From assembly GCF_001186125.1 (NCBI RefSeq), contig NW_014040481.1, positions 16,300 through 80,299 of the forward strand: 64,000 nucleotides of DNA, read 5' to 3'. Origin of the DNA: Sphaeroforma arctica JP610. Taxonomy: Eukaryota. Both the position numbers and the translations under genes were made by a program. Below the pieces are notes generated by a model. That model saw nothing but the letters and a program-made list of their open reading frames with translations. It ran no database searches and had not been told where the DNA came from. Positions 2,091-56,750 of the stretch are shown piece by piece; position 1 is the stretch's first letter, and each line of letters opens with the position of its first letter.

Positions 2091-5000
2091 TCAGATGATG
2101 CGAGCGTCCGCCGAGTGCTTCTTGAGCATGTGGTTGGCCAGGGTCGAGTCCTTGAGATACTCCTTACCACAGCCGGCCACGGTGCAGACAAACTTGTGTT
2201 CGTCAATCTCCTCGCCACCCTCGCCTACTTGGCTGGTGTGCTTCTTGGAGTGACTCTTAAGGCGGGCGCTGGACGCGTACGTCTTGTCACAGTTGTCGTA
2301 CGTGCAGGTGTAGGGCCTGTCGCGCGCGTGCGTGATCATGTGGATCTTGCGCTCGTACCAGGTGGCAAATTTATCCTGGCACGGCCCAAAGGTACACATA
2401 AACGGCTTGGCGCCGCTGCCCTTGGAGTGGATCGGCAAATGCTCCGTCAGCAGCTGATTGCTGATGAACGTGCGCGAGCATCCGTCCCAGGTACACTTGT
2501 ACAACTCCAACCCGTGCACGCCCCTGAAATGCTGCTCCAGTTCAGACTCCAGCGCAAACCCGAGCCCACAGCCGGGCACGGTGCAGGTCACCATCTCCCC
2601 CGTGTGCGTGCGGAAGTGGGCCAGTAAGTTCGTAGACGAGCTGAACTTCTCCTGGCAGCCATCCCACGGGCAGAGATACTTGCCGCGTGACTTGCCTTTC
2701 TTGGGCGCGGGAGCCGGCGCCGGCGCCGCGGCCGCAAGCTGCTGCATGCCCATATTCGGGTTGTTGGGGATTAGTTTGATGCGGGAAACGGGGCCCACTT
2801 CCTTGCTGTGGTCGCCGATGATGGTGCCGCCAAAGGAGGCGTCGTGCATGCGCATGTGTTCGGCCAGAGAGTCCTGTGACTGGAAGCGTTGATCCGCACA
2901 GCCCTGCCAAGAGCACGTGAGCAGGCCCTTGTCCGTGTGCCAGCGCATGTGCACGTTGAGGTTGAAGCGACTTGAGAACTTGTCCTCACAGCCCTCGACC
3001 TGGCAGGGGAAGGTGCGCTCGCCCGAGTGTTTGCGCGTGTGCACGGTCAGCTCGCTCTTGGTCACAAAGCTTTTACCGCAGCCCTCCCACGTGCAGGGAT
3101 ACGGGTGGCTCTCGCCGGTATGTTCACGGTTGTGCGCCGTGAGACGCGACTTGTACCAGAACCGCTTGCCACAGCCCTCCCACGTGCAGGCCAGGGGCCC
3201 TTCGCTCGAGTGCTTCTGCAGATGGTACTTGAGCGCATACGCACTGCTGTACACCTTATGACACCCCCCCCACGTGCACGGGAACTGTCCCTTTGGTTTT
3301 AAGGCTTGGTCGATGGTGCCGTCGGCGCCGGTCAGCGTACCGTTGGCCTCGGCTGCAGCACGCTCGTGGGCGCGGGTGTGGTCGGTGAAATCGGTCTTGT
3401 ACCAGAACCGGCCGCCGCACCCGTCCTCGGGGCAAATAAGCGGCCCGGGGGTGTTGTGCTTCTCCACGTGGTACTTGAGCGCGTACGCATTGCCATACAC
3501 CTTGTTGCACCCCTCCCACACACAGGGATGCTCGACCCTATCCTTGCCCGAGGCGGCCTTGCCCCGGCCCCCCTTGCTGGTGACCATGGTCAAAGCCATG
3601 CCACCGTTCTTGCCGTTCTTCTTGCCCATGGACCCGTTGGCGTTGTTGTTGTTGTTGTTGCCGTTCTTGAGTTCGGACAGCACCAAGGCATTACTCCCCA
3701 GGGTTTGCGCGGCGTTGTTCTGCTGTGCGTGTGAGCGTGTGTGATTGGTGAGCTCATTTTTGTACCAGAATCGCATGTTACACCCGTCCCAAGAACATAC
3801 GAGGGGACCGGGCTGTTCGTGACGTTCCATATGATACTTGAGTAGATACATGTTACCGTATTCCTTCTTGCAACCCTCCCATGTACAAGGAAACTTTTGT
3901 GTATTTGCATTCGCGCTTGGTTGGTCTTTACCGTTCTTCCCGTTGGGGTCTGCCTGTGTACGCGTTTGTGCATGTGTGTATGTATATATATGTATACCAA
4001 TTTGAGTGCATCGTACTCGCTTCTAATATTGTGCATATCGAATAAACTAAGCCAATCTAACTCTACCACATTTCACACATCAGAGGTATCAATAATTCGC
4101 GTTCCACCCTGCAGTTCCTGAAAAAGAATTAATCATCAGGAACCTCGATTGTGTGGTTACTGGACACCTACACCTACACACATGACACTCAGGCGGATAC
4201 ACACACAACACAACAACTAATCAAACTTGCCTGGTCGGCATGCATAGCAAACTGATGGTCGGACAGGTCATTCTTATACCAGAACTTCTGCGTACACCCA
4301 TCAAACGGGCATGCCAGGGGACCCTCGGTGTTGTGCTTCTCTATGTGATACTTGAGAGCGTACGCATTCGCGTACTTGCGTTGACAACCCTCCACGGTGC
4401 ACGCAAAACTGGGCTTCTCTTTCTTGTCCTTGTTGCCCTTCTTCCCGGCATCATTCGGGTCCCAGGCAGCGGCAAGAGCCTCCTGCTGAGCCTTTCCTTT
4501 CTTCTGTTTCTTGGCCATCGCATCGGCGTTGGCGTTAACATCACCAATATTCATCTGCATACCCATATCCTGCATATTCATCGTACTGCCTCCGTGCGCA
4601 ATGCTTCTATCGAGCCCCATACCATTGCCTTCGTCATAAGCACCACCTCCCGTGTCAGACTGCTGGTTGTGTGCACGTTTGTTGGAATTCGCGCCCGGTT
4701 GTGGACTGATATCGCGTCCCCCATCCCCGCTCTCTCCGCCGTTCTCTTTGCTCCGTTTCCATGGGAACATGCTCTTCTGTGTTCCGGCATCGCCCGCAAT
4801 CAAATTCTGCACCTGTTGCAGCGAGTTCTGCTTAGCTCCTGATGGCTGGCTCCATCCCGTTGTGCGCTGTTGGTCATACGCTGGGTGTGAGTACCCCTGG
4901 TCATACGTTCCGTACCCTCCCTGACCCCCTACGAATCCTCCTTGACCTCCGGCAAAGTCTGCTTGGCTCCCAGTAAAGCCCGATCCACTCGCGAAATTGC

Positions 5001-5424: not shown

Positions 5425-8400
5425 CTACATGTCATGTCGATTGGAATGTCAAGGGTTAGGGTTAGGAAGAGTATGGTGAGTCCGGAAAACGGAAGAACGA
5501 ACGAACCGATTTGTGCAAACGGTGTTTAGAATGCACATGTTCAGTGGAGGCGCACTGGTAGGTGAAGTACACGCCATGCGTGCCCTCTGAGAGAATCGAT
5601 TGGTGAAGCAGACGCAGTATTGGCAGCCTGTGAAGTGTTTTAAACAAAAATGCGGCCGTATGATAACTCCACAATCCGAAGCTGATAAACAGCTAATATC
5701 ATATATTCTTAGGATAGAGTATAATATACCGGTATTATTTGCGAAAACGAAGATTCATACTACAAGGTCGCGAAACTCATAGACAATGGAAGTACAAACT
5801 TGGCTACGAGAACTATAGAGATGATAACCTGAACTATTCAACAGTGAGAAATGGGTTACTAAACATTATGCACGCTCACTCCCATCGTGACGAATTCTGG
5901 CATTTCACTAAACGAGATGAATCTCTGGACATTCAATCAACCACACAACCACACATTCACATCAATACACAGTAGTATACGTTACGATGTTGTAAGACTA
6001 CTTCAAGCACGCATACAGGAACACCAGCTCCCATACCTGACACTCGCGTGAGCAATAAGGTCTCTTCCGCAACGGGCACATGATGGTAGCACTACGCCCG
6101 CAAAGGTCGCACAGTGGATTCTCCATAGTGAGACCGGTTGCTTGCTTATCACAAAGCTGGAGAAGCAAAAAGTTTAGAACAAGCCTTAGTCGTTCTTATG
6201 TTGTAACAGTACAGTTGGGTTGCAGATGCAGCCCTTCCGACTGTGAGCTTGAAGCCGATGCTGATGTGTCAGCCCGTCGTCGGATCAGATCTCCTGACTG
6301 ATCTACTTCACGCGGTAAAAGGATCCACATCAACAAGGCAATCTTCGATGTGCTGCAAGAAATCCACGGTTTAGGAGTGTGTCTCGTAAACAAACCACAA
6401 GACGCCGATATGTTAGCAACGGAGCGGCAGACGTAACCCTCGACCCTCGGCTTTTTTGAAACAACTTAGATGATGGTGCTTGACGGAGTTTTATCGAAAC
6501 AAAGTAAATATTCTGAAACGCATTTCGCTGTGAGAGCTACGTTTCAACAAAAAAAATACTGCTGAGCAAACGAAAAATTACGGAAAAATCGCACACATTT
6601 CGAGTATATTTCGGAAATTACAGTCAAAGTTGGGTCAAGGACGGCCCCGGTGTGTTTTTCTATCTCCTACTGTGAAATAATATTTAGTGGTGTGTCCGTT
6701 GGCTATTTTTTTTTAATTTTCACCGTCCGTTTTGATTTAAAAATAGATCTGGGACTCCGGAGTCGAGTGAGACCACCTACCACCGTTTATTTTTAGAAAT
6801 ACGACTATTTTTGGTACGGATATTGAGAATATACTAAAACCGGCACACATCCGACAGCTTTTTTTTGCAAATAGTTTACAACTTTTTCTATTTGAAACAA
6901 ATATTTATTTTAAAAATTATTAGGCAAGATCCCTCCAGCTCCTGGCCGTCCAGAGGCCTGTTTTGTTTTTTTTGCAACGAATCTCGGTATTTTTTTGAAA
7001 TCGAAATGTTGTTTTTCTCAACAAAATGTTGTTTTTTTGAAGGAATAAATAGTATATATTTATATAGTATGACTTTGTACACAATCGGCGTTGTGGTTTT
7101 TTTGTGGAAAATTTATGAGCAAACTATGTTTTTGGAAATCAACACCTGGTTTATATTGCCGGCTGCTGCTCTACTATAATCCACAAGTAAATATTTATCC
7201 ACCTCCATATTATTTATGTTTTTTTTACTATTTTTTTAGTTTATTTTGGCCAAGTTTCTCAACAAATGATGACACTTTGTGATAAACCACCATCATTTAT
7301 GTTTTTAAACCCACCCATAGCAACCTATGAGGCTGACTCACCAGACCAGTCCACCACCCAAAAAAAAAATCGTTAAAAAATTATATACAGTTTCCTTATC
7401 GAAATCATCACAGTTTCACTTTATTTATTTTATTCTTCTTGGAGCAATGAAACGACTGCAAACAGTGCAAACCACTGCAAAAAGTGAAAGCAAGCACTCT
7501 GTTCGCTCCTCACCATTTGACAAAAAAATATCAAGCACTCCTCCAGACTCCCCAGTCTTCGACATCCACGGATTTATTACCTATATATTTTATATATTAT
7601 TGTTATTTTTTTTGGATATAGTATCATATGTAGCCTTCTGAATATTGAACAATAGTATATATAAATCAATATATCGTTTTTTGAGCAAAAAAAATTAAAA
7701 TCCTCCGTGTACAACACGACAAAACATACTAAAATATACCTTACGCTACACTAACACTTCTACAGTCTATACAATACATAATTTATATTGCAGACTACTG
7801 TTTACCACACTAGAGAGTGGATATTGAGGTTGATACATTCTACATACTAAATTCAGTCTACGTTCCACACTACTTCTAGCAAATATATACTAATGGTCTA
7901 CGATTACACCCTATAACGATATCAATATGATTAATATATACTTTGTTTAATCTCCATCACATGATGTACAACCTAGTACTGAAAATATAGTCAAACAGAT
8001 GCGGAAATGGGCAATGAAAAAGTTGCTAAGTCACTGGAAAATGTTGCTATGTAGGTCACTTCTTACCACTTACATACCTAATAGAAACACTATAAGAAAC
8101 ACCAAAGTCACTGCACTACATATACACACACTGCTGCCACATGCCACATCCAAATAACAGCTTTATATCCTCACGCAGATACGACACAGATTGACAATCT
8201 TCCATCACACGTAACATTAGATCACACGTACCATTTCAGGACCTTAAATCCCAAACCTTTGCACCTCTAAATGAAGACACACCCAATCTCATACAATTCA
8301 GCTCCACAAGCCAGCCTGTCCCGCCAGCAAAAAGACCGTGGCCGAAGGCGCCCCCAATAGTAGCAGTGAGCCTGCCAGCTACTGCTCAAATGTAAGCAAC

Positions 8401-9105
8401 CCCGCAAAACCGAGCCGCATAAAACGCCCGACCGCATCAGATTATCACCCCTTACTGCAGCCGCCAGTACCCACACACATTTTGACGAAAGTGATGGGCC
8501 GCCCGAGGCCCGACAAACCTCTTCACGAAATGGATGACATAACTCCGGTATGACTCTTCTTTCGGGCAATTTTCATTAACGGCAAGCCCTCACCCAATCA
8601 GTATTTGAAAATTACTAACACGCCCAATCGCTCTTCAATCGCTATCACTTCCTTTGGTATCTCCCGTCTAAACCGATGTAATATCCGAGCCTCCTAATAA
8701 GACTCTATGTTATAAACGTACTCATAAGCAGTACGTAATCTATAAACGTACTCTTAATAGTACGAGAAACTTAAGTTTCCTAAATGGTTTTCAACGGGTT
8801 TTTTTTAATACCTTTTCCATTTTACATATCAGATATCTGGACAAGGCCATTAAACAGATGTGCCAGTCTGATAAAGGCTACGTCGGTAATTCTTGATAAG
8901 TGGCAAGTTATTGATTAATGCAATTACTATGGACATCAGGAGAATTTTCTTCTGTCAGAGGCTATGATCGTATGGAAATCGGTGAGGCTTACACCCTCAT
9001 AACATCGATCCTCATTTACCATCTAACCCTGGTAATCACAATTTTGGTAATCGTTATACCGGTACCTCACTAGAGGGTACCCACTCTAGCTCTGAAGACG
9101 AGGAA

Positions 9106-10300
9106 GTGAGAACCAGACAACATCTTCTCAGGCTATTACGTTCTGATATGCAAGTCCTTGAGGACCGTCTATTGAATGACTATGACCTTCACGATAAGAA
9201 AGTAGATAACATTCGCTATCTAATCAATAACAAGAGAAAGGTGATAGACTCCATCTTGGCACTAGCGGCCTGTAGCACTGAGCGTGAGCCTCGTAAACGC
9301 TTCGAATCAAGTATTATAAAGCAGCTAGGTAACGCGAAGGCTGAGGTTGATTTCTCTACTAATGAGAGTACAGTGGATACACTGAAGGCCTTTGACCAAC
9401 TTAAGGAGTCTGCCAGCCTTAAGGATAAGCAGATGATGAATGCCTTTGTTCATTTCTGTGAGTCAGAGGAATGGAAAACTATCTTGAAGGCCCATGAGCC
9501 CAAATGGAGAGCCCTACCCTGGCGCCAGTTGCGCAAGAATATACTTAACGCCTTCTTTGAAGATGCGTATGACCGTGAACTTCTAGAGTCTCGCAAGTCC
9601 TTTGCAAACGATACTACTATTCGAGGTGCTCTAGCTCAAATGACACATATGAACACTCGGATGGGAGGTCGTACCTATACTGGCGAATATTTATTAATTT
9701 GTCAGATGATGGAGACTCTGGGGGCTAGCCTTTTTAAGAAGGTCAATGAGGATATTATCGCCTATGGTGATTTGCGATCTACGCCTTAGTCTGTCTTTGA
9801 GAAGATAGTTCAAAAGTATACTAACCCATCTACTAGAGTACTTAGTACCTCGAGCTTAGAGAATAACACTGCGCGTAATACGAAGAAACCTCGCACTACT
9901 GCTGGAGGTGGTAAAGGCTCTACTTCTACAGAACCAAAGGGTGAAAGGAAGGAGAGAGCACCTTGCAAGAAGTGTGGTTACAGCCTCACTAAACGTGATG
10001 GCAAGTGGAATGGTAAACACGACTCTGTTAAGTGTGCACCAGGCAATCCAGACTTTGGACACCGTAAGTATGGCCACGCATCTACAAATCACGGACACCC
10101 ATCAATCTTTCCTGAACCACTACAGCGACTATGAGAGCCATACCATATGTTCATACATTGTATCATACATAGTTGCCATTTTTGAAATAAATAATATTAT
10201 CCCTATATGAAAGGTGTACTACTTGCAAGGGTACTAACGGTTGGCACAAAGATGATTGCAAGGACATACCGGACGTACAAGTTAAGCACTGACAGTTACA
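9106..10300 (+). pseudogene. Gypsy gag (helical region plus two atypical CCHC knuckles), disrupted
   Basis: 227-aa ORF continues past a TAG at 9787 into CKKCGYSLTKRDGKWNGKHDSVKC (~9964-10035) and, after a LINE-derived insert, CTTCKGTNGWHKDDC (~10215-10260). It lies directly upstream of the protease/RT region. Confidence 0.7.
10098..10206 (+). mobile_element. ~110-bp LINE 3'-end fragment inserted in gag
   Basis: Near-identical to the reverse complement of 54785-54893 (cccatcaatctttcctgaaccactacagcg...aatattatccctat). Removing it restores the gag frame (GGA CAT GAA AGG TGT). Confidence 0.85.
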
Positions 10301-10339
10301 TTTATGAGAAAAAAATTAATAAAATCTATACCAAAGGAG

Positions 10340-12135
10340 ATGAACGTATATTTCAAACCGTTTATGTAAATGGAGAAATGTTATAGCACTTTTTTATCCA
10401 GGGGCTGAAGTCTCTGCTATCTCACGCCGAGTAGCCTACGCTACAGATATGGTTATCTAAAACAAAACAACCAATTTAATCTTGGGAAATGGCAAAGTTA
10501 CCACTTGCGAAGAAGCCATTGACTATGCACACATAATGTTGTCAGATAGAAGAGAAGTAAAGACTCACCTAATCGTTACTGACATGTCTCAGAAATACGA
10601 TTTAATTATAGGTATGACTGATCTTCTCAGTTTAGGCATAACTCTCACTGGTTTGCCTTATGTGCTAGACCCAAATAAAGATCAGTCAGATGGTAACATG
10701 TTTAAGATACCTAAACCTCCGGAAGGTGAAGCAAAGGATATGATTCCGCACTTTACCTATATAATTATGGACTTAATTATACAAAATAGGAAGATTGCAA
10801 TAACTGACTGGTGTATGTTTAATTTCTCTAACGGGTACGTTAAGCTTGACTTAACAAACGTCGAATTCTCTAAGTTAAAGTGTCCTTCACATAACTACGT
10901 GAGTTGGAGACACAAAGACGTTGTCAAAACTCAAACTGAAGATTGATTAAAACAGGATCTAATTGAAATCAATTATGATGCAACCCCAGTTAGCTTAGCT
11001 CTCTTAGCGGTCGATCAATATAAATCTGATGGGCCGTTTAGTAAAACAAGAGTAGTACTAGACCTGTTGCCAATCAACAAACTAATTCCGCAACATAGTT
11101 TTCCCTTACCAAAGATAAGCGAGATACTACGCAAAATGAAAGGTACGACTATCTTTTCCAAGGTAGACTTAAAAGTTACATTCCATCAATTACAAATAAA
11201 AAATACTTTTCCTTTACTTGGCAAGGTAAGAAGTATCAGTTTAAAGGTGCACCTGAAAGCTTTCACATGTTACATTCTTTCTTCCAACAAGTTATGATGG
11301 AACTATTTGCGGACCTGTCGGATAACGTATCAGTATATTTAGATGATATAGTTACCTTTACAGAGACAGCACATGAACATGCTAGACTCGTTAAGGAAGT
11401 CTTAAAACGACTAAACCATGCCAAACTTAAGATTAACGAGGATAAGTGTTCTTTTGCTAAAGATACTATACACTTACTTGTTTACAAGGTATCTGCAGCA
11501 GGGGTAGAAATTGATCCTGACAAGAAACAATTTCTGTTGGATTTATCAACACCGATCACTGGAAGAGATGCAAACTCTGTGTGTGGGTTTGTTAACTTCT
11601 TCTCGGATTCGGTACCTCATCTTTCTCATTACTTAAAGCCTTTCAGTCACCTACGGCTACACAATGGACCTTTGGGAAATCTTTGGACTAAAGAATGTGA
11701 TGATGCATTTAAGCTAGTCAAAAGTAAAATAATGGACGCACCCATTATGCAATATCCTGTGGATGGCGTCCCATTCCAAGTAGCGACCGATGCTTCAGAT
11801 CGAGCGGTAGGTGGAGTGCTTTACCAAACGATAAATGGTAAACCGCACTACATACATTTATTTAGCAAGAGTTATAATTAGAGTCAACGGAATTACCCTA
11901 CCGTTAAACAAGAGCTCCTTGCTATAGATACTGCGCTAAGACAGTTTAAAGACTACCTTTATGGAAATTACTTCACTGTCGCCTGTGATCAAAGGTCTTT
12001 AACATATTTAAAGGACATGATCCCTGATTCACAGTTGGTGAGCCGCTGGCATGACATTATTGCTAAGTTCACCTCTAACATTACATACATACCAGGAATA
12101 CATAACCATCTTCCTGACATGCTCTCTCGACTTGT
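10340..12135 (+). pseudogene. Gypsy pol: aspartic protease (degenerate), reverse transcriptase, RNase H
   Basis: TVYVNG...xPGAEVSAIS and YDLIIGM (protease); TRVVLD..PINK..FPLPKI, FSKVDL, YLDD (RT); TDAS, E-LLAI, D-MLSR (RNase H). Confidence 0.9.
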
Positions 12136-12172
12136 CCCTGGCTACCAGAAAACAGTTAAAGAGTTATTAGCA

Positions 12173-12575
12173 ACCGATTGGATGCTTGATAAGAAATTGT
12201 TTAACCTCGCTCAATCAAGATGGGTCCATTTACTATTGATATGTTCGCCGCAGAACATAACAAACAGGTTTCTGATTATAGGTCGTTGACTCATCCTAAA
12301 GGTGATGCCTTTCAACTTGACATATCAAAGCATAATGCGTGGGCTAACCCACCTTGGCAACTTATCGCACAGTTGTTAAATTATGTTAATATTACTAAAT
12401 CTACCATTACGCTGTGTTGTCCCTTACGTAGCTCCGACCCATGAATACGTGCTTTAATTAATATGATACAAGATGAGTCTATCTATGTCGACCATGAAAC
12501 CGACACGTTCCTGTATCAGGGATCATATTCTATTAAGAAGACACCTTGGAAACACACCATTGTTTGTCGCATCGG
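12173..12575 (+). pseudogene. Dam-like N6-adenine DNA methyltransferase domain (DIRS-type MT) inside Gypsy pol
   Basis: Reconstructed across one -1 shift (~12222) and one TGA (12442): TDWMLDKKLFNLAQSRW/GPFTIDMFAAEHNKQVSDYRSLTHPKGDAFQLDISKHNAWANPPWQLIAQLLNYVNITKSTITLCCPLRSSDP*IRAL...PWKHTIVCRI. It has a SAM-binding-type IDxFA (12235-12249), DAF and catalytic NPPW (12346-12357). Confidence 0.85.
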
Positions 12576-12999
12576 TCCTGCAGGTACCACTAAGTGGAAC
12601 CCTCAACCGAGTTATTAGCTAAACTAGAGGAGTCTAAGGAGTTTGAACAAAAGCTCAAGACTCGTACAACACATGCACCCAACAAGAATGCAGTCGAGGT
12701 AGTGCCGATTGAGACGGCATTAGATCGTAAATATATGGAACTTGCTAAGGCCATGGATCAAAGACTCACAGCTCAAAGAGAACCTGAAGCTCGCACTCAA
12801 CTGCTTAAAGCGCTGCTTAAAGAACAGCCAGGAGTTGCGAAACAATTGAAGAAGATACTTCATCAATCTAATGTTGTTAATTACGTATGTCAGGAGTCTA
12901 TCCCTCCTGATACTGAAATTGCCCTATCTAACGGGACTATGGTTCATCCAGCCAGCGTTACACAGAATCTGACTGACTTAGAAGAGCTCGAGAACAGAG

Positions 13000-13990
13000 T
13001 TAAAATAATACATAATTTAACTCATCGAGCATATGAGCATACTTATAAGATGGCTATTCGTGCAGGGCTTGATCACCCGGCGCTGAAAGAAACCATACGT
13101 GAAGTATACCGACGCTGTACTGATTGTGAAAAGAACCAGACCAAGCGCTACGGTTGGGCATCCCTAAAAAGTGTGATAGAAGACCAACCGATGCGCCGAG
13201 TCATAGTCGATTTGGGTTAACTCCCGCGATCCAAGCATACTGGCGATGTATATATCTGTCATTTCTTATGTGTGGCTTCGGGCTATAACTTGCTTTATGC
13301 AATACCGAACAAACGCCCGCAAACAGTAGCAGAGTTATACTATCACGTCTTTAATGACTTCGGTTTCCCCCGAGTACTATGTTCTGATAACGGTAGTGAG
13401 TTTTGTACCGACATAATGGAGGCACTTATACTCGTATCAGGCATGACCCATAAGCGTGGTGTTCCTTATAAACCTCAAACGCAGGGTGCAAATGAGACAC
13501 GTCATAGAGAACTAAAGAAGCTAATGCGTACCGCACTATATGATGCTGAGGATATGTGACCTTATCATTTGAAATGGGTTCAGACTGTCAATGAATAACT
13601 GCATGAACCCTCAAACTGGAACACTCCCATTTCACTATTTCTTTGGCCGCTATAGTGAATTACAAGCAACGTTTGACAAAACTGCGCCCGAGAAACACGT
13701 TACTCCGCGGCTACAAAAGATCGAGCATATGCAGTACGTTGTTTACCCCTGTTTACTCGAGCACAAAAATTGTATCCTACTTAAAGCGTATGACCGATGG
13801 AATAACACTAAGAACATTGTTCAGTTCAAAGTTGGCGATTATGTTAACATTATAAATCGCAATGCCAACGTTACCGAACTCTCTTCTAAGACAATTGGAC
13901 CTTTTGTTATTTCCTACCATGATGAGAAGAGTGATACTTACGAAGTGAATAACATAGATAGTACTAGCGCAACTAATCTAGGCACTCACC
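13000..13990 (+). pseudogene. Retroviral-type DDE integrase with HHCC zinc finger
   Basis: IIHNLTHRAYEHT...CTDC; PMRRVIVDLG*; FGFPRVLCSDNGSEF; YKPQTQGANETRH; FKVGDYV...IGPF (GPY/F region). Confidence 0.9.
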
Positions 13991-14049
13991 GTATTCCTAC
14001 CTCCGAACTTTCATTCGCTCGCTCATTTGATTCTGATGTCCCATTTATG

Positions 14050-14200
14050 GAGTCACAAGTCAAAGATATGATTGACAAAACATCCGAAGACGGTTACACT
14101 TCCTACAAGACCCGTTTTATGGACGGGACAGTAGCTTGGCTAACCTCCTATGCGTTTCGTGAATCTCGCGACTTCCTTCGTATTTTTGATAAGAAATGGA
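14050..14200 (+). other. Chromodomain-like C-terminal extension of integrase
   Basis: SQVKDMIDKTSEDGYTSYKTRFMDGTVAWLTSYAF resembles the chromo pattern V..I.D.r....g..Y.v.w......W. It is in the position expected for chromoviruses; aromatic-cage residues are only partly conserved. Confidence 0.5.
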
Positions 14201-14604
14201 ATAAGAGTTTACATAATAACACAAGAGATAAACGGAAAGGGTTTCCTTAGGTGACTATAAACCCGGATGGATATGAAATTTCCTATTTGCCACCTACTTC
14301 CTATGTGACTAAACTATCTGATCTGCTTACCAACAGAGCAGAAAATTCTTCGAACTTCCCTACTAATGAAGAACAACCTTTGGCTATTACCTTACCAAGT
14401 AATAAACGTAAGGCGCCTATATCAGAAATGGTTACTGGACCAAATACTAAACGGCATAGAGTACAACATGAGTCTTGAACTTGTACATATAGGCACATAC
14501 TTGCTCGATAAGCCATGACCGAAACCGTTTTACTTTAGTTTTCGCTTTACGAACTAGATCGTACTTTCACGTACGTCCGTTGCCCTAAAAGCTACTGGGG
14601 GCTA

Positions 14605-14980
14605 TGTAGAAATACGGCCTCCGGTCAGTCTAATATATCAAGATCAAATGAGATATTACATTGGTTTTTATTTGTATTTAAAATAAGTAAATACAAGTTC
14701 TTTTTCCAATATTTACACAGTGTTCTAAATTCACTTTGATGGCTCCGATAGCCAGAGTATTTCGTATGACTCATTTACTTGGACCGATTTGAGACGATAG
14801 TAGATGTAGGATATTATAAACTAAATTTTATAATCACTGAACTACTACTTACAGGTTTTGGTCTTCCCGCCAGTCCCCAAAATCCAATAAGTCTTTTTTT
14901 ATTTAAATTTTTCTTCAGATGGAACTTTATTTATATTAGCTAATGTATTAACTTGACTTACGTTCTTATGTCTATCTACA
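14605..14980 (+). repeat. Probable 3' LTR (376 bp)
   Basis: Preceded by a purine-rich tract (aaaagctactgggggcta). Begins TGTAGA and ends TCTACA (6-bp terminal inverted repeat) and contains AATAA-like signals. Confidence 0.65.
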
Positions 14981-15439
14981 AATTAGACATGTGGTCATGA
15001 ACACTAAGTACTTCTAGTGAAAATTATTCAATAAATAACAGCTAGAGGTACGTCCTGTGTGATCGAGGATATTAAGGCTCTTACCAAGAGGCAGTCCCGA
15101 TCATTCTTACACAAGCTACCACTGCTAAATCCTAACTGACTTAAATTGTTTCTTAGTTTATATAACATAGTTTAAAACATAGAAATATACATCGAAGTTT
15201 ACAAGTGCAGGTTTCTTGGCACGTGCTTTATCCACCTTATCGCATAACTCGGTTAAATGGCGAATCGTTCCAAGCAACCGTTTCAGCAGCTGGTCACAGG
15301 CTTGCTTACCCACTGTGGGCAACGGTCTAGTCTCGGGTCCCGTCATTGTTGTAAAAAAAAAAGTATACTAAGTTGCTTCTTAGTTAATTTAACTTTTAAA
15401 GAACGAAGGAGAATATGTCCAGTAGTTTGGTCACTTAAA

Positions 15440-15808
15440 AGTGTGGTCAAAACCAAGTAACACTTAAAAAAAAGTGTGCTAAGTCTGAAATAAGTGAACT
15501 CAGTCAGAAGTGCCGTTATGATCGGCGCGTCTGCTAATTTTATTGTCACGCTCCTACATGAAACAAGATTTTCTCTAACAACGGGTAATTATGAAAATAC
15601 CCGTATCTATGATTTTCGTCTCCTGATAACTAAATTATGAAGACACCGTTTGAGTCATCATTATTTCATATTAAATTCTCTGTCCCAATATTCAGTTCGG
15701 TCCCTCAGCCCGGTACTGTAATATTCTACTCAGGTCCGGTCCTCTGGTCCGGTCCTGAAATTCCACTTGTTGGTCGAGCCCTCTGGTCCGGTCCTAAATG
15801 TCCGTCCT
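15440..15808. repeat. Left copy of a long diverged inverted repeat, containing ggtccggtcct subrepeats
   Basis: Reverse complement aligns by eye with 18660-19040 (e.g. agtctgaaataagtgaactcagtcagaagtgcc vs ggcacttctgactgacttcacttatttcagact). Confidence 0.8.
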
Positions 15809-15809
15809 A

Positions 15810-17120
15810 AGTATTTTGTCCACATGCGGGTGAGTCAATGTCGCACCAGACCACAGATGCACTCGGTGTGTGCTGGCTGGCCTGGATCGGAAGTATCATA
15901 GGCGGAACCAACAAGCGTGATGACTTGGTTTGGACCAAAATTTGCAAGTAGTACTCCAACAGCGTGATCAGCCGGGGTATGGGGAGCATCTGTTGATGTG
16001 TCAGAGACGGGTGAGGGTACGGTGGTTCTTCTACATGCTGGAGAAAAGATCCAAGGTGTTCGTGGAGGGTCCAGATACCGTGGAAATCTTTGCACTCCTG
16101 TAATCGCTGGAGATAGTCAGGGCCAATGGGCGGCAGTTTCGGGCCTACCAGGATGCGTCAAATCAGTTGTGGGATGCAGGTAAAGTGGCTTGTGGTGAAC
16201 TTGTGGCTACCGAAGCAGACAGAGCAGAGACAGCTGTCAGTACGGTAGTCGAGCAATGTGAACATATACGTATTCGCTACAATCATAGCACAGAGCCGGA
16301 TTGGTGTAGGCTCAAAGCAGCGGTTGCAGCTGTTGTGTCTGGATTTGTCTCGATTTGAGGTTGGCTGTTTACCCAGAACTAGTTGGTAGTAGTATTGGCG
16401 CCGGGCCATTGCTGCGATCTCCTTGTTGGACCAGCGTTTTGTTGAGTTCTTCCTAATATCGTTACAGGGTTGGCGGAGGGCTACATGGTCGGGTGTACGC
16501 CCGCCCGTGGTTTTGTGTGCAGTTTTCAGGTGAGCATATATACTGTACGGGAAGCCCAGTGATGGTTTGTAATGGGCCCTGGCGGGTTTCGTCAGAGGGG
16601 TGAGTGGATTTGTGCTGGCCACTGAGTCGAGTTGTATTTCCAGGCAACCTACGAGGTAGTCCGCGAATGGTCGCGCGGGGAGCAGGCCACAAAAGTGGTG
16701 TAAGTTTGTTTGATATTTGGGAAACATAGGGTATTTAGTGCCCGTGATGATGGCCTGCTGCTTAGATGAGTGCTGAGTTAAAGCGCTCGAACAAGGGGTC
16801 CAACGCATCCTTCCATATAAGCGGAGCCCAGGCAATATTGTTCAGGCCATATGTAGCCGTGGATAGGATGAATGTTTTGCACAGCACAAGTCGGTTGTGG
16901 GGGTGTCTCCAGCTGAAGCCATGGAAGCCATAAGCGCGGAAAGAGGCGATACCCAGGGACACTGCTGCAACCAGGGATTCCATATGTCTGGCGAGGTTGA
17001 TCCCTGGTGTTCCGTGAGAGAGTGGGAACCCCAGATATTTGGAGCGTTTCGGCTTGGCATGTGTGGGCGCCATCTTCAGGGAGAGGTAACGTGTGTTCCA
17101 AGGTGCGTTTGCGAGCGTCA
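15810..17120 (-). mobile_element. 5'-truncated non-LTR retrotransposon (LINE) fragment, post-RT region with C-terminal CCHC
   Basis: KYLGFPL, RLVLCKTFILSTATYG, AIITG, CSVCFGSHKFTTSHFTC; highly similar to 55450-56410, which carries RT motifs. Confidence 0.85.
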
Positions 17121-35699: not shown

Positions 35700-38600
35700 C
35701 GCAAAATGCCAACAGCAACCAGGGCAGGGATATATGGTGGAGACGGGGATGACACCAATAAGCAGGGAGCGTACAACAGCTCAGAAGGGGAATCAACCCC
35801 AGGTAACAACTCGAGTGCGTCAGCAATGCGTTTAGAAATAGACACGAGCATTTGTCATGTTAAGTGCTTCCTGGTCAGTAGGAACATCCCCAAACTAGAA
35901 GCAACAGCACCTGTAGCTATCGCAAGTCTACACAAGATGAGAGTAGGAATTCATGATCAGCAACCTGAGCGTCGCATGCCTCTAGTAGACATAGAGCTCA
36001 GGAAGAGATACGATCAAGTCAGCGATGCATGTGGTGACGACGAGGACGATGAAGTATGTCTTATTAAGCAATATATTAGTGAGCTAGAGATCATGTGTTC
36101 ACGCGTAGGTATTAAGATGAATGAACCAGCAGTTTTTGAACTTCTAAAGCTAAAAGCCGCTGAATTTCCGAAGTTACCGAGTGATGATTCCTTCAAAACG
36201 GAAAATTGTAAAGACATTATAGAGTTTACTATGCAATGCAGAGGCGTGTTCTTAGCTAAGTCCATGACACTCTGTCAGTATCCAACACTAGTGAGATATC
36301 TATTAGATTACACTGAGGCAACTGAGAAGACCAATGGGGGTTCTCAATGAAATACACGACTCAGAGACGCAGATCACAAATCACTACACTGATCCAAAGC
36401 AATTCAATAGAATCGTTCTTGATAGACTCAGACATCACCCTGTAGACTATCAGTTAGAAAGCTTCTCAATGACACGGATAACAAGGCACTGAATGTGGAA
36501 GCGCGCACAGAGCGGATGCATAGGACGATGCAGGTAATAGAGAAGGATACGGAAACTCGGAGAAAGAGCCAATACGTGCAACTCCCCAATACATGCAACT
36601 CCTCAAGGAAGCCAGATACAAGGCACTCATGTACGATGGACAGCAGGACAAGGTAGACGCAATCACTAAAGGAGACAAATTGCCTGATGGAAGTGACAGT
36701 CACTTAGATATGAAGCAGAGCTTGTCCTATTCTTTTACAGAAGCATCCAAATGAGCAGCAACAGCAAAGATGCATGCAGACCGGTTGTTCAGAGAGCGGA
36801 AGAGATACCACTCGAATGCACATCAAGCAACGAACACGGCTACACACAGCCAAACACAGAACACCGTACCATCAGTCCAAAAGCGTCACAAATCAGACAA
36901 TGGCACACCAAGACAGCCCAATTTAATAGGACAACCCTAAGAGAAGGAAGGGGCGCGCAAGGCACGTACTTGTTTCTATTGCAAGGTATCACCGGCTCCA
37001 CATCGCTTTAGCCAATGACATATGAAGGCTGCAAATCAAATTAAGAAGGCTGACGAGCGTGCTAAGAGTGACCTGCAATCGACACGACACTCAATTACCA
37101 CATGGAAGGTAGATGAGCTAACAGGTAGCGATGAGTCCTGAAACAACTGAGGTGAGGAAACAAACATGATTGACTTGACTGACAACTTAAGATGTATATA
37201 CAAATGAAGAAACGTTGTCAATAAATGCGGATGATTTGAGTTACCAACTTTTATCCTTGCTTCCCGCACCACGAGACCAAATAATACCTTTTGACATACA
37301 AATTAATGACAATACGTACAGGGCACTCGTAGACTCAGGCACACGACGCTCATGTATGGACAAAAGTATATTAACTGAACTATATCTATCAGTCAGAGCG
37401 CAACTAGGCTACATACAATTAGCACAAATATATGTGATAATACAAAGAACAAGGTCAACCAAAGTATGTGACATTAATTACAGAGGAATGAAAACCTATT
37501 CGTGTTTTTTAAGAGTTGGACCTACCAGACAAGGAGGCACCAATACTACTATGTATGAACATTATTCCATACATAAGTAGATATATTGCGGGATTAATAA
37601 ATCTACTTTTACCAACAGATACAAAAAAGAAATGACTACTCACTCCATATGAGAAAGACCCCGAGCACGAACAAGAAGGTTCAGAGAGTCACTTGCAGAC
37701 CTAGAAACCAATGCAAATATACCCCCTTGACGTACATTGCAACCTGCCAGGCTCCAAAGTCACTGTACAAATGAGGCATACCAAAGTAAACTTTGTACCA
37801 CATAAGCACATTCCACAAACGGATGAAAATGTGAACAGGTGGCTTACAAATGGCTACTTATACAAACGAACAACACCAACAACGGTGAACTTACCATTGT
37901 TATCTACAGGTGAACATGACCAAACAGATCTCCTCGAGAAAGTAAGGACATGTTTTGACTTAAGCGAGATTGATTACCAATACGAGCAAGGCATATTTGT
38001 GCTAACAAAAATAAAAGAGGTATTACACAACCTACAAGAAGCACGATTCTTCTCAAAACTAGATCTCGCGTGGGAGTTCCACCACTTCCTAGTAGATGAA
38101 GCAAGCAGACACTTTTTTCTCATGGAGGGGAGCGCAATACTTATTCAAGTCGGCGCCATTCAGTCTGTACTCACTCACAGCACAATTCCAGAGAGTTATG
38201 GCAAACCGTGGATGAAAGTCTTTGCATGTCTCCCAGAAGAGCGAAATCGCAAGACAGCACATGAAGTAAACAAACGATTGAACGGAGCAAACTTTCGACT
38301 TAGCCACAATGATCGAAGTGGTTAACATTCTGGGGGTGAAAGTCACCACAACATGACTCAAAACCGATCTTGAAAAATAGGTAAGATTGATGGACTGGCA
38401 ACTATCCAGAACAAAAAGAGAGCCGCACAGAGTGTGGGACTCGCAAACTATATGCATGACCATGTACCTAACTTTGCTCACACAACTAAACACTTCCGCA
38501 ACCTAATGAAAGGTAAAATGAGCCAAAAAGTATCTATGTGTACACCGGAACTGGAAAAGAAGTGAAAAGAATTCAAAGTAGCCATTGCATGTTCGGCGAC

Positions 38601-39162
38601 CCTAGCATACCCAGTGTATGGGGTACAGTTTCAATCATGAACGCTGCTAGTGACTATGCCATAGGAGGATAGTTGGAGTGAGAAGAGACATTCTCTACTT
38701 CTCTAAAGGCTTGGACTCGGCCTATCAACGCTATGGCACAAACATCAAAGAGCTACTAGCACTGGTATACAGTCTAAAACATTTATCTGAATCCATCAAT
38801 GGAGAGGACACTAAACTTTGGATGGATTATAACGGGCTTACGCAAATGAACAGCCAACAGACGTTACACCCAATACTAGCCAAATGGATAGCAAAAACAT
38901 TCCACCACAACTTCTCCATCATACATGTCCCAGGCAAGGACAACCAGATGGCAGATATGTTGCCGCGTCTACACAAAGACACATTCAACACCAAAACGTC
39001 GGAGGTATTAAAAGACACGAACAAAACAACACGCAACAGTCAAGAGTACGCCACCTTGGAAACAAACATTCGAGTAGCCACACCAGTCAGAGACTGGGAG
39101 CTGCACCCTAGATTCTATAAAGAAGCAGAAAGAAGGTTTGACAAATCACAGTAGATCTTTTT
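35700..39162 (+). mobile_element. Second, highly degenerate Ty3/Gypsy element (gag, protease, RT, RNase H, start of methyltransferase domain), 3'-truncated
   Basis: RTCFYCKVSPAPH knuckle (~36965); YRALVDSGTRRSCM (protease, ~37320); RFFSKLDLAWEFHHFLV (RT); KELLALVYSLKH and HVPGKDNQMADMLPR (RNase H); DWELHPRFYKEAERRF/ITVDLF (39092-39162). Confidence 0.88.
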
Positions 39163-40612
39163 TATTATTGTACACATATTATAGACTCTAGTGGTCTATT
39201 GTACACATACTGTAGATTCTAGAGCTTTACTACACAAATATTGTAATTTCTAGTCGTTTATTGTTCCGCTATACTTTAATACATATAGCTCATTACATTT
39301 CAAAGGACTACAATACCAACCCGAGTATTGCTCCGCATCCCTTCATTAATACCACGATGACTACAAAGCAGACATACCCGTCCCCACACACTTCGCTTTG
39401 CGTGCAAGTGTTTCCACTGAGGAATCTCATACTTCCTCACCAAATGGATCGTGCGCAAGTGCCAGCCAACTGCTCATATCAGCCAGCCGTCCGAGCAACC
39501 TTCTATTGAGTCCTAAACCCGACGGAAGTCCACGAATAAGTGATCAGTCAATACTCCGTCATCCTATGCTATATACTGACGTTTAGTATTTGACTTTGAC
39601 TTCTTTGCACCCGCATCGCCTACCCATGTCCTCGCAGACAAATGTCTTTCATCTGCGAGGGGAATTATTTCGCCATAACCCTCCCGCGATACAATCGCGC
39701 TCCAGCCGCACATACCCTCACATATACAGCGATACAATCGGGGGCTTTCATCACGCTCCAACCGCATATACCTTTACATATACACGAGTGGTGTATCGTA
39801 GAACAAGTAGTCATGAAGCGGTCCATATGTGCCTTTGCTAGGTGCATGTTGTGTTCAAAGATCGTGTAGACTTGCTGAGTCCCCGTTACACCACACCACA
39901 TTACTCGCGCATTCCCACCAGGTTCATGGGTTACCCACCACTCAATGCGCCAATCGTCATTTGACCCCAACGCTCGCCCTCACCGTCTACCAAATAAATC
40001 CCTACTTCCGCAGCTCCCGCTGCTCGTACATATCTTAACCGTCCCGATGTCTCCTTAAACATATACGCACGTGCCACCTTCCTGGAATTTGGAGACGCAT
40101 CTAGAGATGCCGAATCTTCAAACCCTGCAACCCTGCATCTCTAAACGATCGGTCGTCTGACACTGAGGACCAATAGAGAGCAGTTGCGATGCTGACTGGA
40201 AGGGGCTCACAGAGTCACATAGCTTTTGGTGGCAAACACATACGGATCAAACCGTATCACACTTAAAACGCCGTCTGAAGTCGTCTGGAAACCCAACAGA
40301 CATATACAGATCAGGTTGCGAATCCATCAGCTAGATGGTCGTACTTATGTCCTGGTGTAAGCTCCCTTACACCCTGCAATCCTATAGTATGTTGGCTATG
40401 TGGTGCAACCACCCCATGTGCACGTGCTGGTTACACGGCGTATTGCAGAACAGCACCAAGATCGCATATCCATGCGCGTACATACCAGCCCACTGTGACG
40501 GTGATGGTACGAGAGCCCGACTGTATAGCGCATAGGCGTAACCTCGTGCAGGTGCAACTCCCACGGCGGTCAACTCTGATACAGGTACACCGACCGGAAT
40601 AGCCAGACATCT

Positions 40613-54784: not shown

Positions 54785-56750
54785 ATAGGGATAATATTAT
54801 TTATTTCAAAAATGGCAAGTATGTATGATACAATGTACGAACATATGGTATGGCTCTCATAGTCGCTGTAGTGGTTCAGGAAAGACTGATGGGAAGAAGT
54901 GGTCAGTAAATTCCCGTTTGAAGCTTGGGCCAAGTGAGTCGACAATGGAAGATATGTGCTGAGTCAATTCGGGCCGGTGTTGACAAAATACTGTTACTAT
55001 CGAATGTTCCATATATTCGCTTGCTGACCTACTAAGTAGATTACCCACCTTTGTGGTACGGATCGGGTCTGCGCCGTGCAGTGCCGCGGAATGGGTTAGT
55101 GTAGAGTACGAAATACCGAGAAGGACCAGGTTATCAGTCATATTCCGGTCGAGAAGCGAGGATGGGGGTAAGCCAATGCCGCACCAAACCACGGATGAAT
55201 TCGGTAAGTGTTAGCTGGCCTGGATTAGTGGTTCAGGAAAGATTGATGGGAAGAAGTGGTCAGTAAATTCCCGTTTGAAGCTTGGGCCAAGTGAGTCGAC
55301 AATGGAAGATATGTGCTGAGTCAATTCGGGCCGGTGTTGACAAAATACTGTTACTATCGAATGTTCCATATATTCGCTTGCTGACCTACTAAGTAGAGTA
55401 CCCACCTTTGTGGTACGGATCGGGTCTGCGCCGTGTAGTGCCGCGGAATGGGNNNNNNNNNNNNNNNNNNNNGCTGAAGGAGGTCAGGGCCAATGGGTGG
55501 CAGTTTTGGGCCTACCAGGATGCGTCGAATCAGTTGTTGGATGCAGGTAAAGTGGCTGGTAATGAACTTGTGGCTACCGGGGCAGACAGGGCAAAGACAG
55601 CCGTCGGTGCGGTAGTCGAGCAATGTGAACATGTACGTATTCGTTACAATCATAGCACAGAGCCGGATTGGTGTAGGCTCGAAGCAGCGATTGAAGCTGT
55701 CGTGTCTGGCTGTGTCTCGGTTTGAGGTTGGCGGTTTACCCATAACCAGTTGGTAGTAGTATTGGCGCCGGGCCATTGCCGCGATCTCCTTGTTGGACCA
55801 ACGTTTTGTTGAATTCTTTCTGATGTCGTCACAGCGTTGGTGGAGGGCTACATGGTCGGGTGTACACCCGCCCGTGGTTTTGTGTACAGTTTTCAGTGAG
55901 CATAGATACTGTACGGGAAGCGCAGTGCTGGTTTATCGTGGGCTCAGGCGGGTTGTGTCAGAGGTCGCGCGGGGAGCAGGCCACAAAAGTGGTGTAAGTT
56001 TGTTTGATGTTTGGGAAACCGAGGGTATTTAGTGCCCGTGATGATGGCTGCTGCTTGGTTGAGTGCTGAGTTAAAGCACTCGAACAAGGGGTCCAACGCA
56101 TCCTTCCATATAGGCGGAGCCCAGGTAATAATATTCAGGCCATATGTAGCCGTGGATAGGATGAATGTTTTGCACAGCACAAGTCGGTTGTGGGGGTGTC
56201 TCCAGCTGAAGTCATAGAAGCCATAAGCGCGGAAAGAGGCGATACCCAGCGACAATGCTGCAACCAGGGATTCCATATGTCTAGCGAGGTTGATTCCTGG
56301 TACTCCGTGAGAGAGTGGGAACCCCAGGTATTTGTAGTGTTTCGGATCGGCATGTGTGGGCGCCAGTTTCAGGGGGAGGTAACGTGTGTTCCAAGGTGCG
56401 TCTGCAAGCGTCGGCGTGATAAGCTCACCATTTATATGGAGGGCTGGCGCCGCGTGTCGCAAGTCGGTAGATCGTACTCGGGGTTTAATGACACCCTGTT
56501 CAAGGCCATATTTACGTCCCCACGCATCAATATCATCTAAGAAGGGCTGGAGCGAAACCGATCGAGGGTCTTGGATCCGTGTGTCATCGACAAATAAATA
56601 AGAGCGGAGGAGCTTGGGCCGAAATTGTGCTAGCGTGACAGCTAAGGAATCTATGTAGATAATAAAGAGCTGGGGGTCAACGATTGATCCTTGTATGATG
56701 CCATTCGTTCTATGGAATAGAGACGAGAGCGTGCCAAGATAGTTACGGCT
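54785..56750 (-). mobile_element. 5'-truncated LINE (RT motifs, C-terminal CCHC, 3' region with ~225-bp duplication)
   Basis: NGIIQGSIVDPQLFIIYIDSL...YLFVDDT (56710-56580), HYKYLGFPL, CPVCPGSHKFITSHFTC; 54868-55093 is repeated at 55227-55452. Confidence 0.9.

What the first reader, a model, noticed from the sequence alone, without database searches (positions are those of the whole stretch)
12173..12575. Ty3/Gypsy LTR retrotransposon carrying a Dam-like N6-adenine methyltransferase domain between RNase H and a DDE integrase
Seen: directly after the RNase H end motif (NHLPDMLSR), pol reads DWMLDKKLF...WGPFTIDMFAAEHNKQ...DAFQLD...AWANPPWQLIAQLL...ITLCCP...PW. A linker, an HHCC/DDE integrase, a chromo-like tail, a PPT and a TGTAGA...TCTACA LTR follow. 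Established: the W-x-L...IDxFA..N...DAF...[N/F]PP..LI...L..P signature is the phage-Dam-related MT domain found after RNase H in DIRS1-type tyrosine-recombinase retrotransposons, NPPW fits amino-methyltransferase motif IV, and Ty3/Gypsy pol normally lacks such a domain. Inference: a DDE-integrase LTR element that encodes its own 6mA methyltransferase, possibly marking its cDNA or insertion site, acquired from a DIRS element or a phage/viral source. This copy is dead (frameshift, W-to-stop), but the catalytic motif is intact.
Basis: partly seen in the sequence, partly recalled or inferred. Interest (0 to 1): 0.92.

Follow-up and report, generated by a model that had tools for sequence, protein, structure and literature searches.

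The report
Decayed methyltransferase-carrying Gypsy retrotransposon in Sphaeroforma
This is a broken copy of an abundant Gypsy-type jumping gene of the marine protist Sphaeroforma arctica that really does carry an adenine-methyltransferase-like domain in the middle of its enzyme string, likely used to mark its own new copies, but a 2026 preprint has already described this kind of element in this same species.

Summary
At 12170-12585, right after RNase H and before a DDE integrase, lies a Dam-like (PF05869) N6-adenine methyltransferase domain with NPPW at 12346-12357. It is not a nesting artefact: intact single-ORF relatives run protease-RT-RNase H-MT-integrase, one colinear with this copy at 78-86% identity. 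The RT groups with integrase-bearing elements and Abeoforma relatives, apart from DIRS-like RTs. A neighbouring gene is 100% identical to a Sphaeroforma arctica protein. bioRxiv 10.64898/2026.05.21.726589 already reports an ichthyosporean DAM-LTR lineage in S. arctica, with raised 6mA and expression but a negative E. coli assay. So this is a known kind, probably a known family. Corrections: the LTR spans 14605-15203, not to 14980, and this copy has no 5' LTR. Two small additions: the tail is predicted to be a degenerate chromodomain, though the preprint says the lineage lacks one, and the closest solved fold is the RNA cap methyltransferase PCIF1, which the preprint never mentions. Activity and substrate remain unshown.

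The parts
8986..10110 (+). Gag-like frame (inferred from position and a C-terminal Cys/His cluster), one internal stop at 9787
   Evidence: no Pfam family at E<0.1; inside the high-depth repeated block
10098..10206 (.). 109-bp piece of another repeat sitting at the gag-pol junction of this copy
   Evidence: 97% identical to window 54893-54785; loose ends at both edges, and contigs of other copies skip about 10060-10213 in 4 of 4 runs
10303..10619 (+). Aspartic protease region, frameshifted and with a stop
   Evidence: colinear with P0001 residues 8-113; P0001 27-113 matches PF13650 and PF13975
11055..11491 (+). Reverse transcriptase (YLDD intact), one frameshift near 11180-11198
   Evidence: RVT_1 E 4e-14 and 0.015 on the two frames; P0001's best PDB match is Ty3 Gag-Pol, E 6e-63
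11684..12133 (+). Ty3-type RNase H, one stop at 11879
   Evidence: PF17919 E 4e-29, PF17917 E 2e-25
12170..12585 (+). Dam-like N6-adenine methyltransferase domain; IDMFA 12235-12249, NPPW 12346-12357; frameshift near 12221, stop at 12442
12597..13001 (+). Poorly conserved linker, entered through a frameshift near 12597
   Evidence: 33% identity between P0001 and P0002, against 67% for the MT; contigs of other copies bridge 12337-12731
13002..13653 (+). Integrase: H2C2 zinc finger and DDE core; stops at 13218 and 13557, frameshift near 13587
   Evidence: PF17921 E 0.006, PF00665 E 1.4e-8; lesions
13813..14022 (+). SH3-like integrase C-terminal domain (predicted)
   Evidence: model residues 1-70 align to foamy virus integrase C-terminal domain, Z 6.2, rmsd 2.3, 60 residues; Ty3 integrase is the top Foldseek row, E 2e-3
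14053..14232 (+). Degenerate chromodomain-like fold (predicted)
   Evidence: no Pfam Chromo hit; profile chain family to clade 92.9%, clade to canonical chromo 97.7%, direct only 3%; SUV39H1 chromo Z 7.5, rmsd 2.2, 59 residues, with Oxpecker and Rhino next
14593..14604 (+). Short G-run just before the LTR (polypurine-tract-like; function inferred)
   Evidence: sequence
14605..15203 (+). 3' LTR, 599 bp, TGTAGA...TTTACA
   Evidence: unrelated flanks (agreement 0.35-0.41) before 14605 in 22, 46, 49 records and after 15203 in 32, 73, 77 records of runs X1, X4, X13; depth falls after 15213; termini

Best explanation
This is a decayed, 5'-truncated copy of a highly repeated Ty3/Gypsy LTR family of Sphaeroforma arctica whose Pol carries a Dam-like N6-adenine methyltransferase between RNase H and integrase, and in intact copies that domain likely methylates the element's own new DNA so that fresh insertions would stay transcribed. 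Shown here: the domain order, the fold class, its presence in unbroken single-ORF relatives, its conservation, the repeated nature of the family, the host species and the LTR ends (identity of the element about 0.95). Inferred: (1) the domain is made as part of Pol and so enters the virus-like particle, probably still joined to RT-RNase H, because it sits only about 14 residues after RNase H while a long variable linker separates it from integrase; (2) it binds SAM through the conserved DxFA and DAF segments and uses NPPW to N6-methylate adenine on the cDNA or the RNA:DNA intermediate; (3) the host's AMT1 maintains the mark at ApT after integration, giving permissive chromatin. Step 3 is the preprint's model, not tested by me. 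This copy cannot make the protein (5 frameshifts and 7 stops in pol against P0001).
For: Intact PR-RT-RH-MT-IN single ORFs P0001 (1400 aa) and P0002 (1376 aa); the window is colinear with P0001 residues 8-1400, at 78-86% in the five long segments and 65% in a 34-residue one. The MT keeps 67% identity between P0001 and P0002, like RT (61%) and RNase H (73%), above integrase core (57%) and linker (33%), which points to purifying selection. NPPW or NPPF is kept in 16 of 17 members of the LTR-type MT clade. The model matches phage N6-adenine DNA methyltransferases best among viral proteins (E 1.4e-6, TM about 0.7). RT: family plus Abeoforma relatives 94/96; split from DIRS-like 100/100; AU test rejects family plus DIRS-like, p 0.03. 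Host gene 100% identical over 611 aa to S. arctica SARC_01837. The preprint reports more methylated and more expressed DAM-LTR insertions in S. arctica and Abeoforma.
Against: No activity is shown anywhere. In the preprint, DIRS, LTR and adintovirus DAMs expressed in dam-minus E. coli did not raise 6mA. P0001, the closest intact relative, has CPPW, so at least one unbroken copy lacks the catalytic Asn. The closest solved fold is the RNA enzyme PCIF1 (Z 9.4, against 6.3 for E. coli Dam). Iyer et al. call DIRS-type domains likely inactive. 6mA enrichment is a correlation that transcription alone could cause. The window's Pfam score is below the curated cut-off. The MT-tree branch joining the family to Abeoforma relatives has SH-aLRT 94 only, from a quick search. 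The sequence target (must include ApT for the AMT1 step) is unknown.
Confidence: 0.5

Rival explanations
1. The domain is a catalytically dead or weak binding module. It would hold the element's RNA, cDNA or a host protein, and the 6mA seen on DAM-LTRs would come from host AMT1 acting on transcribed copies.
For: Iyer et al. 2016 (PMC4738411, passage seen) judge DIRS1 MTase domains likely inactive. Negative E. coli assay. CPPW in intact P0001. 8 of 45 DIRS-like relatives with RT have F, A, Y, V or C, and 3 have H, in place of N.
Against: 16 of 17 LTR-clade members and 34 of 45 DIRS-like members keep NPP plus an aromatic residue. D, F, A, N and DA positions of the presumed SAM site are 77-97% conserved over 150 sequences.
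Confidence: 0.27
2. The domain is a PCIF1-like RNA methyltransferase. It would N6-methylate the element's own genomic RNA (cap-adjacent or internal adenine) or the RNA strand of the hybrid, helping translation, packaging or stability, and would not write DNA 6mA.
For: PCIF1/CAPAM is the top solved fold in Foldseek (E 4.6e-4, TM 0.66-0.70) and VIA-align (Z 9.4, rmsd 3.1, 117 of 122 residues; next row 6.8). 18 of 74 homologues also match the PCIF1 Pfam model PF12237, best E 1.7e-7. Iyer et al. place DIRS MTases in the PCIF1 clade. The only published activity test read DNA only. The preprint's main text has 0 mentions of PCIF1.
Against: Phage DNA N6-methyltransferases score better than viral PCIF1 homologues (E 1.4e-6 against 2.9e-3, similar TM), and 68 of 74 homologues match PF05869 against 18 for PF12237. 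PCIF1 may simply be the only solved member of the clade. The domain (139 aa) lacks the rest of PCIF1 (chain of about 490 aa), which from recall builds the cap-binding site.
Confidence: 0.2
3. The order is an accident: a DIRS pol fused to the integrase of a separate nested element, or an assembly chimera.
For: Frameshifts lie at both edges of the MT (near 12221 and 12597), and P0003 shows a fragment of this family fused to an unrelated RT-like stretch in a gene model.
Against: Unbroken single ORFs with the same order; contigs of other copies bridge MT and linker; RT is not DIRS-like; other copies lack these frameshifts and stops.
Confidence: 0.01

Closest known systems
Ichthyosporean DAM-LTR lineage (Fernandez-Moreno et al., bioRxiv 10.64898/2026.05.21.726589, 22 May 2026; whole main text read; figures and supplements not seen)
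   Same: Same host species (S. arctica), Ty3/Gypsy organisation, PF05869-type DAM with NPP, RT and MT both grouping with Abeoforma whisleri DAM-LTR proteins.
   Different: The text says the lineage lacks chromodomains; here the tail, and more clearly the Abeoforma tail, is a degenerate chromodomain by profile and predicted fold. The text does not state the DAM position for this lineage (figure not seen) and does not mention PCIF1. I could not check whether this exact family is in their tables.
DIRS1-type tyrosine-recombinase retrotransposons with an MT domain (Iyer et al. 2016, PMC4738411, passages only; preprint introduction)
   Same: Homologous MT placed right after RNase H; 27-37% identity of DIRS-like MTs to the window; shared DxFA, DAF, NPP and P..W motifs.
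   Different: In the DIRS-like proteins the MT ends the ORF and no integrase follows (45 rows). Here a DDE integrase and a TG...CA LTR follow and the RT lies on the other side of a 100/100 branch.
Phage N6-adenine DNA methyltransferases (Pfam Dam PF05869, PHROG 111)
   Same: Best profile match and best viral structural match.
   Different: Only 16-24% identity; embedded in a retroelement polyprotein; PF05869 is not the T4/E. coli Dam family (recalled), which scores lower (Z 6.1-6.3).
PCIF1/CAPAM cap-specific adenosine N6-methyltransferase (PDB 6irw, 6irx)
   Same: Closest solved fold, 117 of 122 residues aligned; same clade according to Iyer et al..
   Different: 14-18% identity; only the methyltransferase core is present, with no WW domain.

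Membership tests
DAM-LTR, ichthyosporean lineage | Dam (PF05869) domain in Pol with the NPP triplet | tested here: met
   E 3.9e-6 on the window and 7.4e-6 on P0002, within the preprint's 1e-5 cut-off although the search set-up differs and both are under Pfam's gathering score; NPPW at 12346-12357
DAM-LTR, ichthyosporean lineage | RT of Ty3/Gypsy type, not DIRS | tested here: met
   P0001 as stand-in (85% identical): best PDB match Ty3 Gag-Pol E 6e-63; trees; no named Repbase references were in the trees
DAM-LTR, ichthyosporean lineage | Protease, RT, RNase H and DDE integrase in Gypsy order in one ORF | tested here: met
   P0001 and P0002; window colinear
DAM-LTR, ichthyosporean lineage | TG...CA long terminal repeat belonging to the element | tested here: met
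   14605-15203 with unrelated flanks at both ends in 3 of 3 runs; 1 listed record of another copy bridges internal region and LTR by 31 or more bases on both sides
DAM-LTR, ichthyosporean lineage | Paired LTRs and target-site duplication in this copy | tested here: inconclusive
   no 5' LTR in the window: best local score 38 against a shuffle mean of 38.5; a duplication therefore cannot be read
DAM-LTR, ichthyosporean lineage | Ichthyosporean host and grouping with Abeoforma DAM-LTRs | tested here: met
   host gene 100% identical to an S. arctica protein; RT clade 94/96, SH-aLRT 98; MT clade SH-aLRT 94; names
DAM-LTR, ichthyosporean lineage | No chromodomain (as worded in the preprint) | tested here: inconclusive
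   true by Pfam, but a degenerate chromo fold is predicted, and Abeoforma P0095, a member of the named lineage's host set, shows it more clearly; so the feature seems to reflect a detection threshold
DAM-LTR, ichthyosporean lineage | Raised 6mA and expression of insertions | not testable with these tools
   only contigs could be laid; reported in the preprint
DIRS retrotransposon | DIRS-type RT with the MT at the end of the ORF | tested here: not met
   (AU p 0.03)
DIRS retrotransposon | Tyrosine recombinase instead of DDE integrase | tested here: not met
   a DDE integrase follows in frame in intact relatives and no recombinase family was hit in the element frames scanned; broken frames on the other strand were not scanned
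Chromovirus | Chromodomain at the integrase C terminus | tested here: inconclusive
   predicted fold only, Z 7.5, in the range the tool calls middling; no Pfam hit
Chromovirus | RT within named chromovirus clades | not tested
   no named chromovirus references were at hand; three unnamed Pfam-chromo elements lie outside the family's clade
PCIF1/CAPAM | WW domain plus full-length methyltransferase | tested here: not met
   139-aa core only, no WW or PF12237 hit on the window, P0001 or P0002

The most novel reading that the evidence does not exclude
The retroelement 'Dam' domain is functionally a PCIF1-type enzyme that methylates the element's own RNA or the RNA:DNA replication intermediate inside the particle. 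That would explain the failed DNA assay, and the ichthyosporean elements would be cryptic chromoviruses pairing a self-marking methyltransferase with a divergent chromatin-reading tail.
Probability: 0.2. Interest if true: 0.7.

Novelty: already known. Interest (0 to 1): 0.22.

Why it matters
A retrotransposon that brings its own adenine methyltransferase would be exploiting an activating host mark instead of only evading silencing. That idea is already in print for this species, so the locus adds little as a discovery. Its practical value is a well-bounded family with intact relatives (P0002 with NPPW, P0001 with a natural CPPW variant) in a culturable host with 6mA data. These make a ready pair for the open question: is the domain an enzyme, and does it act on DNA, hybrid or RNA?

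Tried and rejected
No whole genome is held for this window, so copies could not be counted or dated, and dN/dS was not estimated; protein identity by domain stands in for it. Summed contig depth (about 250 on the unique flank against 3-7 x 10^5 inside, run X1) shows a highly repeated family but is not a copy number. Sequence searches of the PDB with the MT found nothing useful: 0 hits; 9 at E 0.3-1.3 with PCIF1 at E 0.89; 3 chance hits. Viral contigs: 25 pattern matches, 0 confirmed. Metagenome contigs: 3 of 196 pattern matches confirmed, all distant at 28-34%; L003 is DIRS-like and L001/L002 have the MT before RT, so none gave DNA of this family. No RNA holder was listed among sequencing runs; this says nothing on expression. 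The careful RT tree of 63 rows did not finish, so one search is the quick tree; one search is a careful tree of 27 of those 63 rows (33 DIRS-like rows, 1 ungrouped row and 2 long-branch rows left out). The MT tree used 72 of 150 proteins plus the window and is unrooted, so it cannot name the donor. ESM Atlas gave only unnamed eukaryotic clusters and one with Dam in 11% of members for the MT; no Atlas answer was obtained for the tail. The direct profile comparison of the family's tail with canonical chromodomains was weak (3%). The frequency of NPPW against CPPW among S. arctica copies could not be read, because only the best-supported variant rows were shown. No dinucleotide depletion stood out in the element (ApT o/e 0.93, CpG 0.84). 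No complex prediction was run, since no binding claim is made. Literature searches; the library lacks most subscription journals. The preprint's supplements were not seen and may list this family.

Full report
Observation. Translation of 8000-16500 shows a gag-like frame, protease, RT, RNase H, the reported domain, a linker, integrase and a tail, all on the + strand and broken by frameshifts and stops. The domain spans 12170-12585. It starts about 14 residues after the RNase H end, shifts frame near 12221, carries IDMFA (12235-12249) and NPPW (12346-12357), and has a stop at 12442. Pfam gives Dam PF05869 at E 1.2e-5 and 3.9e-6, just under the gathering score, with RT_RNaseH (E 2e-25), RVT_1 (E 4e-14) and rve (E 1.4e-8) on the flanking frames. 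PHROG 111, DNA methyltransferase, matches 3 of 3 aligned members.

It is one element. A search for longer proteins gave 3 hits among 22 candidates: P0001 (1400 aa, 82% in the MT), P0002 (1376 aa, 64%) and a partial S. arctica gene model, P0003. P0001 is a single ORF with protease, RT, RNase H, Dam and integrase; P0002 has the same order with no protease hit. The window matches P0001 from residue 8 to 1400 in six colinear segments, five at 78-86% and one short one at 65%, with 5 frameshifts and 7 in-frame stops. Contigs from 4 of 4 public runs cover about 8580-15200 far more deeply than the flank. At the stops at 11879 and 12442 at least 98% of the summed depth reads another letter, and the frameshifts near 12221, 12597 and 13587 are absent from other copies in all four runs. 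Records from other copies bridge 12337-12731. The lesions are therefore those of this copy, and the nesting rival is refuted.

Ends. The LTR runs 14605-15203 (599 bp, TGTAGA...TTTACA). Long unrelated flanks join before 14605 (22, 46, 49 records) and after 15203 (32, 73, 77 records) in 3 of 3 runs, and depth collapses after 15213. No such end was listed at 14980 among the rows shown (641 further rows were not shown). No 5' LTR exists upstream, so the copy is 5'-truncated and no target-site duplication can be read.

Host. A zinc-finger frame at 2094-3926 is 100% identical over 611 aa to S. arctica SARC_01837; the next hit is 33%. The host is this ichthyosporean.

Relatives and trees. A profile of three MT sequences found 1844 proteins at E<=0.001, of which 150 were listed. 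Of 30 scanned with Pfam, 28 matched Dam at E<=0.001. Three of the top five other hits are Abeoforma whisleri proteins. P0001's best PDB match is Ty3 Gag-Pol. In a quick RT tree of 63 rows, all 15 integrase-bearing rows lie on one side of a 100 branch and all 45 rows with a C-terminal MT and no integrase on the other. A careful tree of 27 of these rows gives 100/100 for that split and 94/96 for an 11-row clade holding the family and Abeoforma; forcing the family with the DIRS-like rows is rejected at p 0.03. In the MT tree the window, P0001 and P0002 (100) fall in an 18-row clade with the same relatives (SH-aLRT 94). RT and MT thus travel together in this lineage. The tree is unrooted and does not identify a donor.

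Is the domain under selection and intact? Between P0001 and P0002 it keeps 67% identity, against RT 61%, RNase H 73%, integrase core 57% and linker 33%. Across 150 sequences D, F and A of the first motif are 96-97% conserved and both prolines 99%. NPPW or NPPF is found in 16 of 17 LTR-clade members; the exception is P0001 with CPPW. That exception is an unbroken ORF and the closest relative, which counts against a strict need for catalysis or marks a subfamily that lost it.

Fold. The model from 74 sequences has pLDDT 93 (it lacks the 17 residues before the frameshift). Among solved structures PCIF1/CAPAM ranks first (Foldseek E 4.6e-4; Z 9.4, rmsd 3.1, 117 residues), ahead of KsgA and Erm (6.8) and E. 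coli and T4 Dam (6.3, 6.1). Among viral models, phage N6-adenine DNA methyltransferases rank first (E 1.4e-6) and viral PCIF1 homologues later (E 2.9e-3), at similar TM scores. By profile, 68 of 74 homologues match PF05869 and 18 of 74 PF12237. The domain sits in the phage-Dam/PCIF1/DIRS group, somewhat nearer the phage enzymes; fold does not decide the substrate.

Tail. Pfam finds no chromodomain. A profile of the clade's tails matches canonical chromodomains at 97.7% and the family's tail at 92.9%, while the direct comparison is weak at 3%; Abeoforma P0095 matches a small chromo profile at 22.7 bits. The model (pLDDT 74; alignment included three kinds of Pfam-chromo relatives, which may bias it) gives an SH3-like domain and then a fold whose top three matches are chromodomains (Z 7.5, 7.2, 7.1), with MPP8 at rmsd 1.5 over 56 columns.

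What is known. The first paper search returned bioRxiv 10.64898/2026.05.21.726589; I read its whole main text, not its figures or supplements. It claims the first identification of DAM domains in non-DIRS LTR elements and defines five lineages. One is an ichthyosporean lineage in Pirum, Abeoforma and S. arctica with conventional Ty3/Gypsy organisation and no chromodomain. It reports more 6mA-marked and more expressed DAM-LTR insertions in S. arctica, a negative E. coli assay, and the model of marking reverse-transcription intermediates followed by AMT1 maintenance. Iyer et al. 2016 (PMC4738411; three passages seen) place the DIRS domain in the PCIF1 clade and call it likely inactive. PMC5890265, PMC12695648 and bioRxiv 10.1101/2024.10.28.620566 were seen as search listings only. 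PCIF1 does not occur in the preprint's main text, and a search for PCIF1 with retrotransposon, Dam and evolution found 0 papers. Earlier scan notes from other genomes reach the same 'already described' verdict; they are not independent support and I did not test them.

Verdict. The feature is real and correctly read, but it is a dead copy of a kind already described in the same species: novelty 'already known', interest 0.22. I put self-methylation of new DNA at 0.5, a dead binding module at 0.27, an RNA methyltransferase at 0.2 and artefact at 0.01. The useful residue is the corrected LTR, the degenerate chromodomain, the PCIF1 link that argues for testing RNA and hybrid substrates, and a natural NPPW/CPPW pair of intact relatives.

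Noticed in passing
proteins P0235, P0262 (unnamed Logan and JGI records): A 1838-aa Ty1/Copia-type polyprotein (zinc knuckle, Pol_BBD, Dam E 7e-11, SH3, RVT_2) with a Dam domain after the protease region. The preprint's main text speaks only of DIRS, Ty3/Gypsy-like, LINE-like-RT and hepadnavirus-like carriers, so a Copia carrier may be undescribed.
   Followed up: no
proteins P0112, P0152 and loci L001:5001-7256, L002:992-3247: 2100-2400-aa polyproteins with the order protease (P0152), endonuclease/exonuclease/phosphatase domain, Dam, RT, RNase H, integrase zinc finger, and a very long-branch RT. L001 and L002 also have the MT before RT. An odd architecture from unnamed metagenomes.
   Followed up: partly
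protein P0156 (Olpidium bornovanus KAG5459425.1): dUTPase followed by a Dam-like domain in one gene model of an early-diverging fungus.
   Followed up: no
window 10098-10206, 54785-54893, 55944-56801, 16106-17054: A second repeat family: a 109-bp end piece sits in the gag-pol junction, its twin lies at 54.8 kb near a minus-strand RT-like frame (RVT_1 E 1.5e-4), and 16.1-17.1 kb matches 55.5-56.3 kb at 90-94%. Probably a non-LTR element.
   Followed up: partly
joints 10205/10206 to 14605 and 16130 to 14604: Contigs in 4 of 4 runs join the end of that 109-bp piece directly to the first base of this LTR, hinting at repeated insertion of one repeat at the other's end or an internally deleted derivative.
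   Followed up: no
P0001 residues 38-41 and window 10380-10410: The protease motif of the intact relative reads DPG where six other relatives read DTG or DSG.
   Followed up: no
window 37705-39175: Fragment of another Gypsy-like RT-RNase H, 25-30% identical to P0001 and P0002, with no MT match.
   Followed up: no
protein P0003 (SARC_08637): Annotated S. arctica gene model that fuses a piece of this family's MT and linker to an unrelated RT-like stretch, probably an annotation of nested repeats.
   Followed up: no
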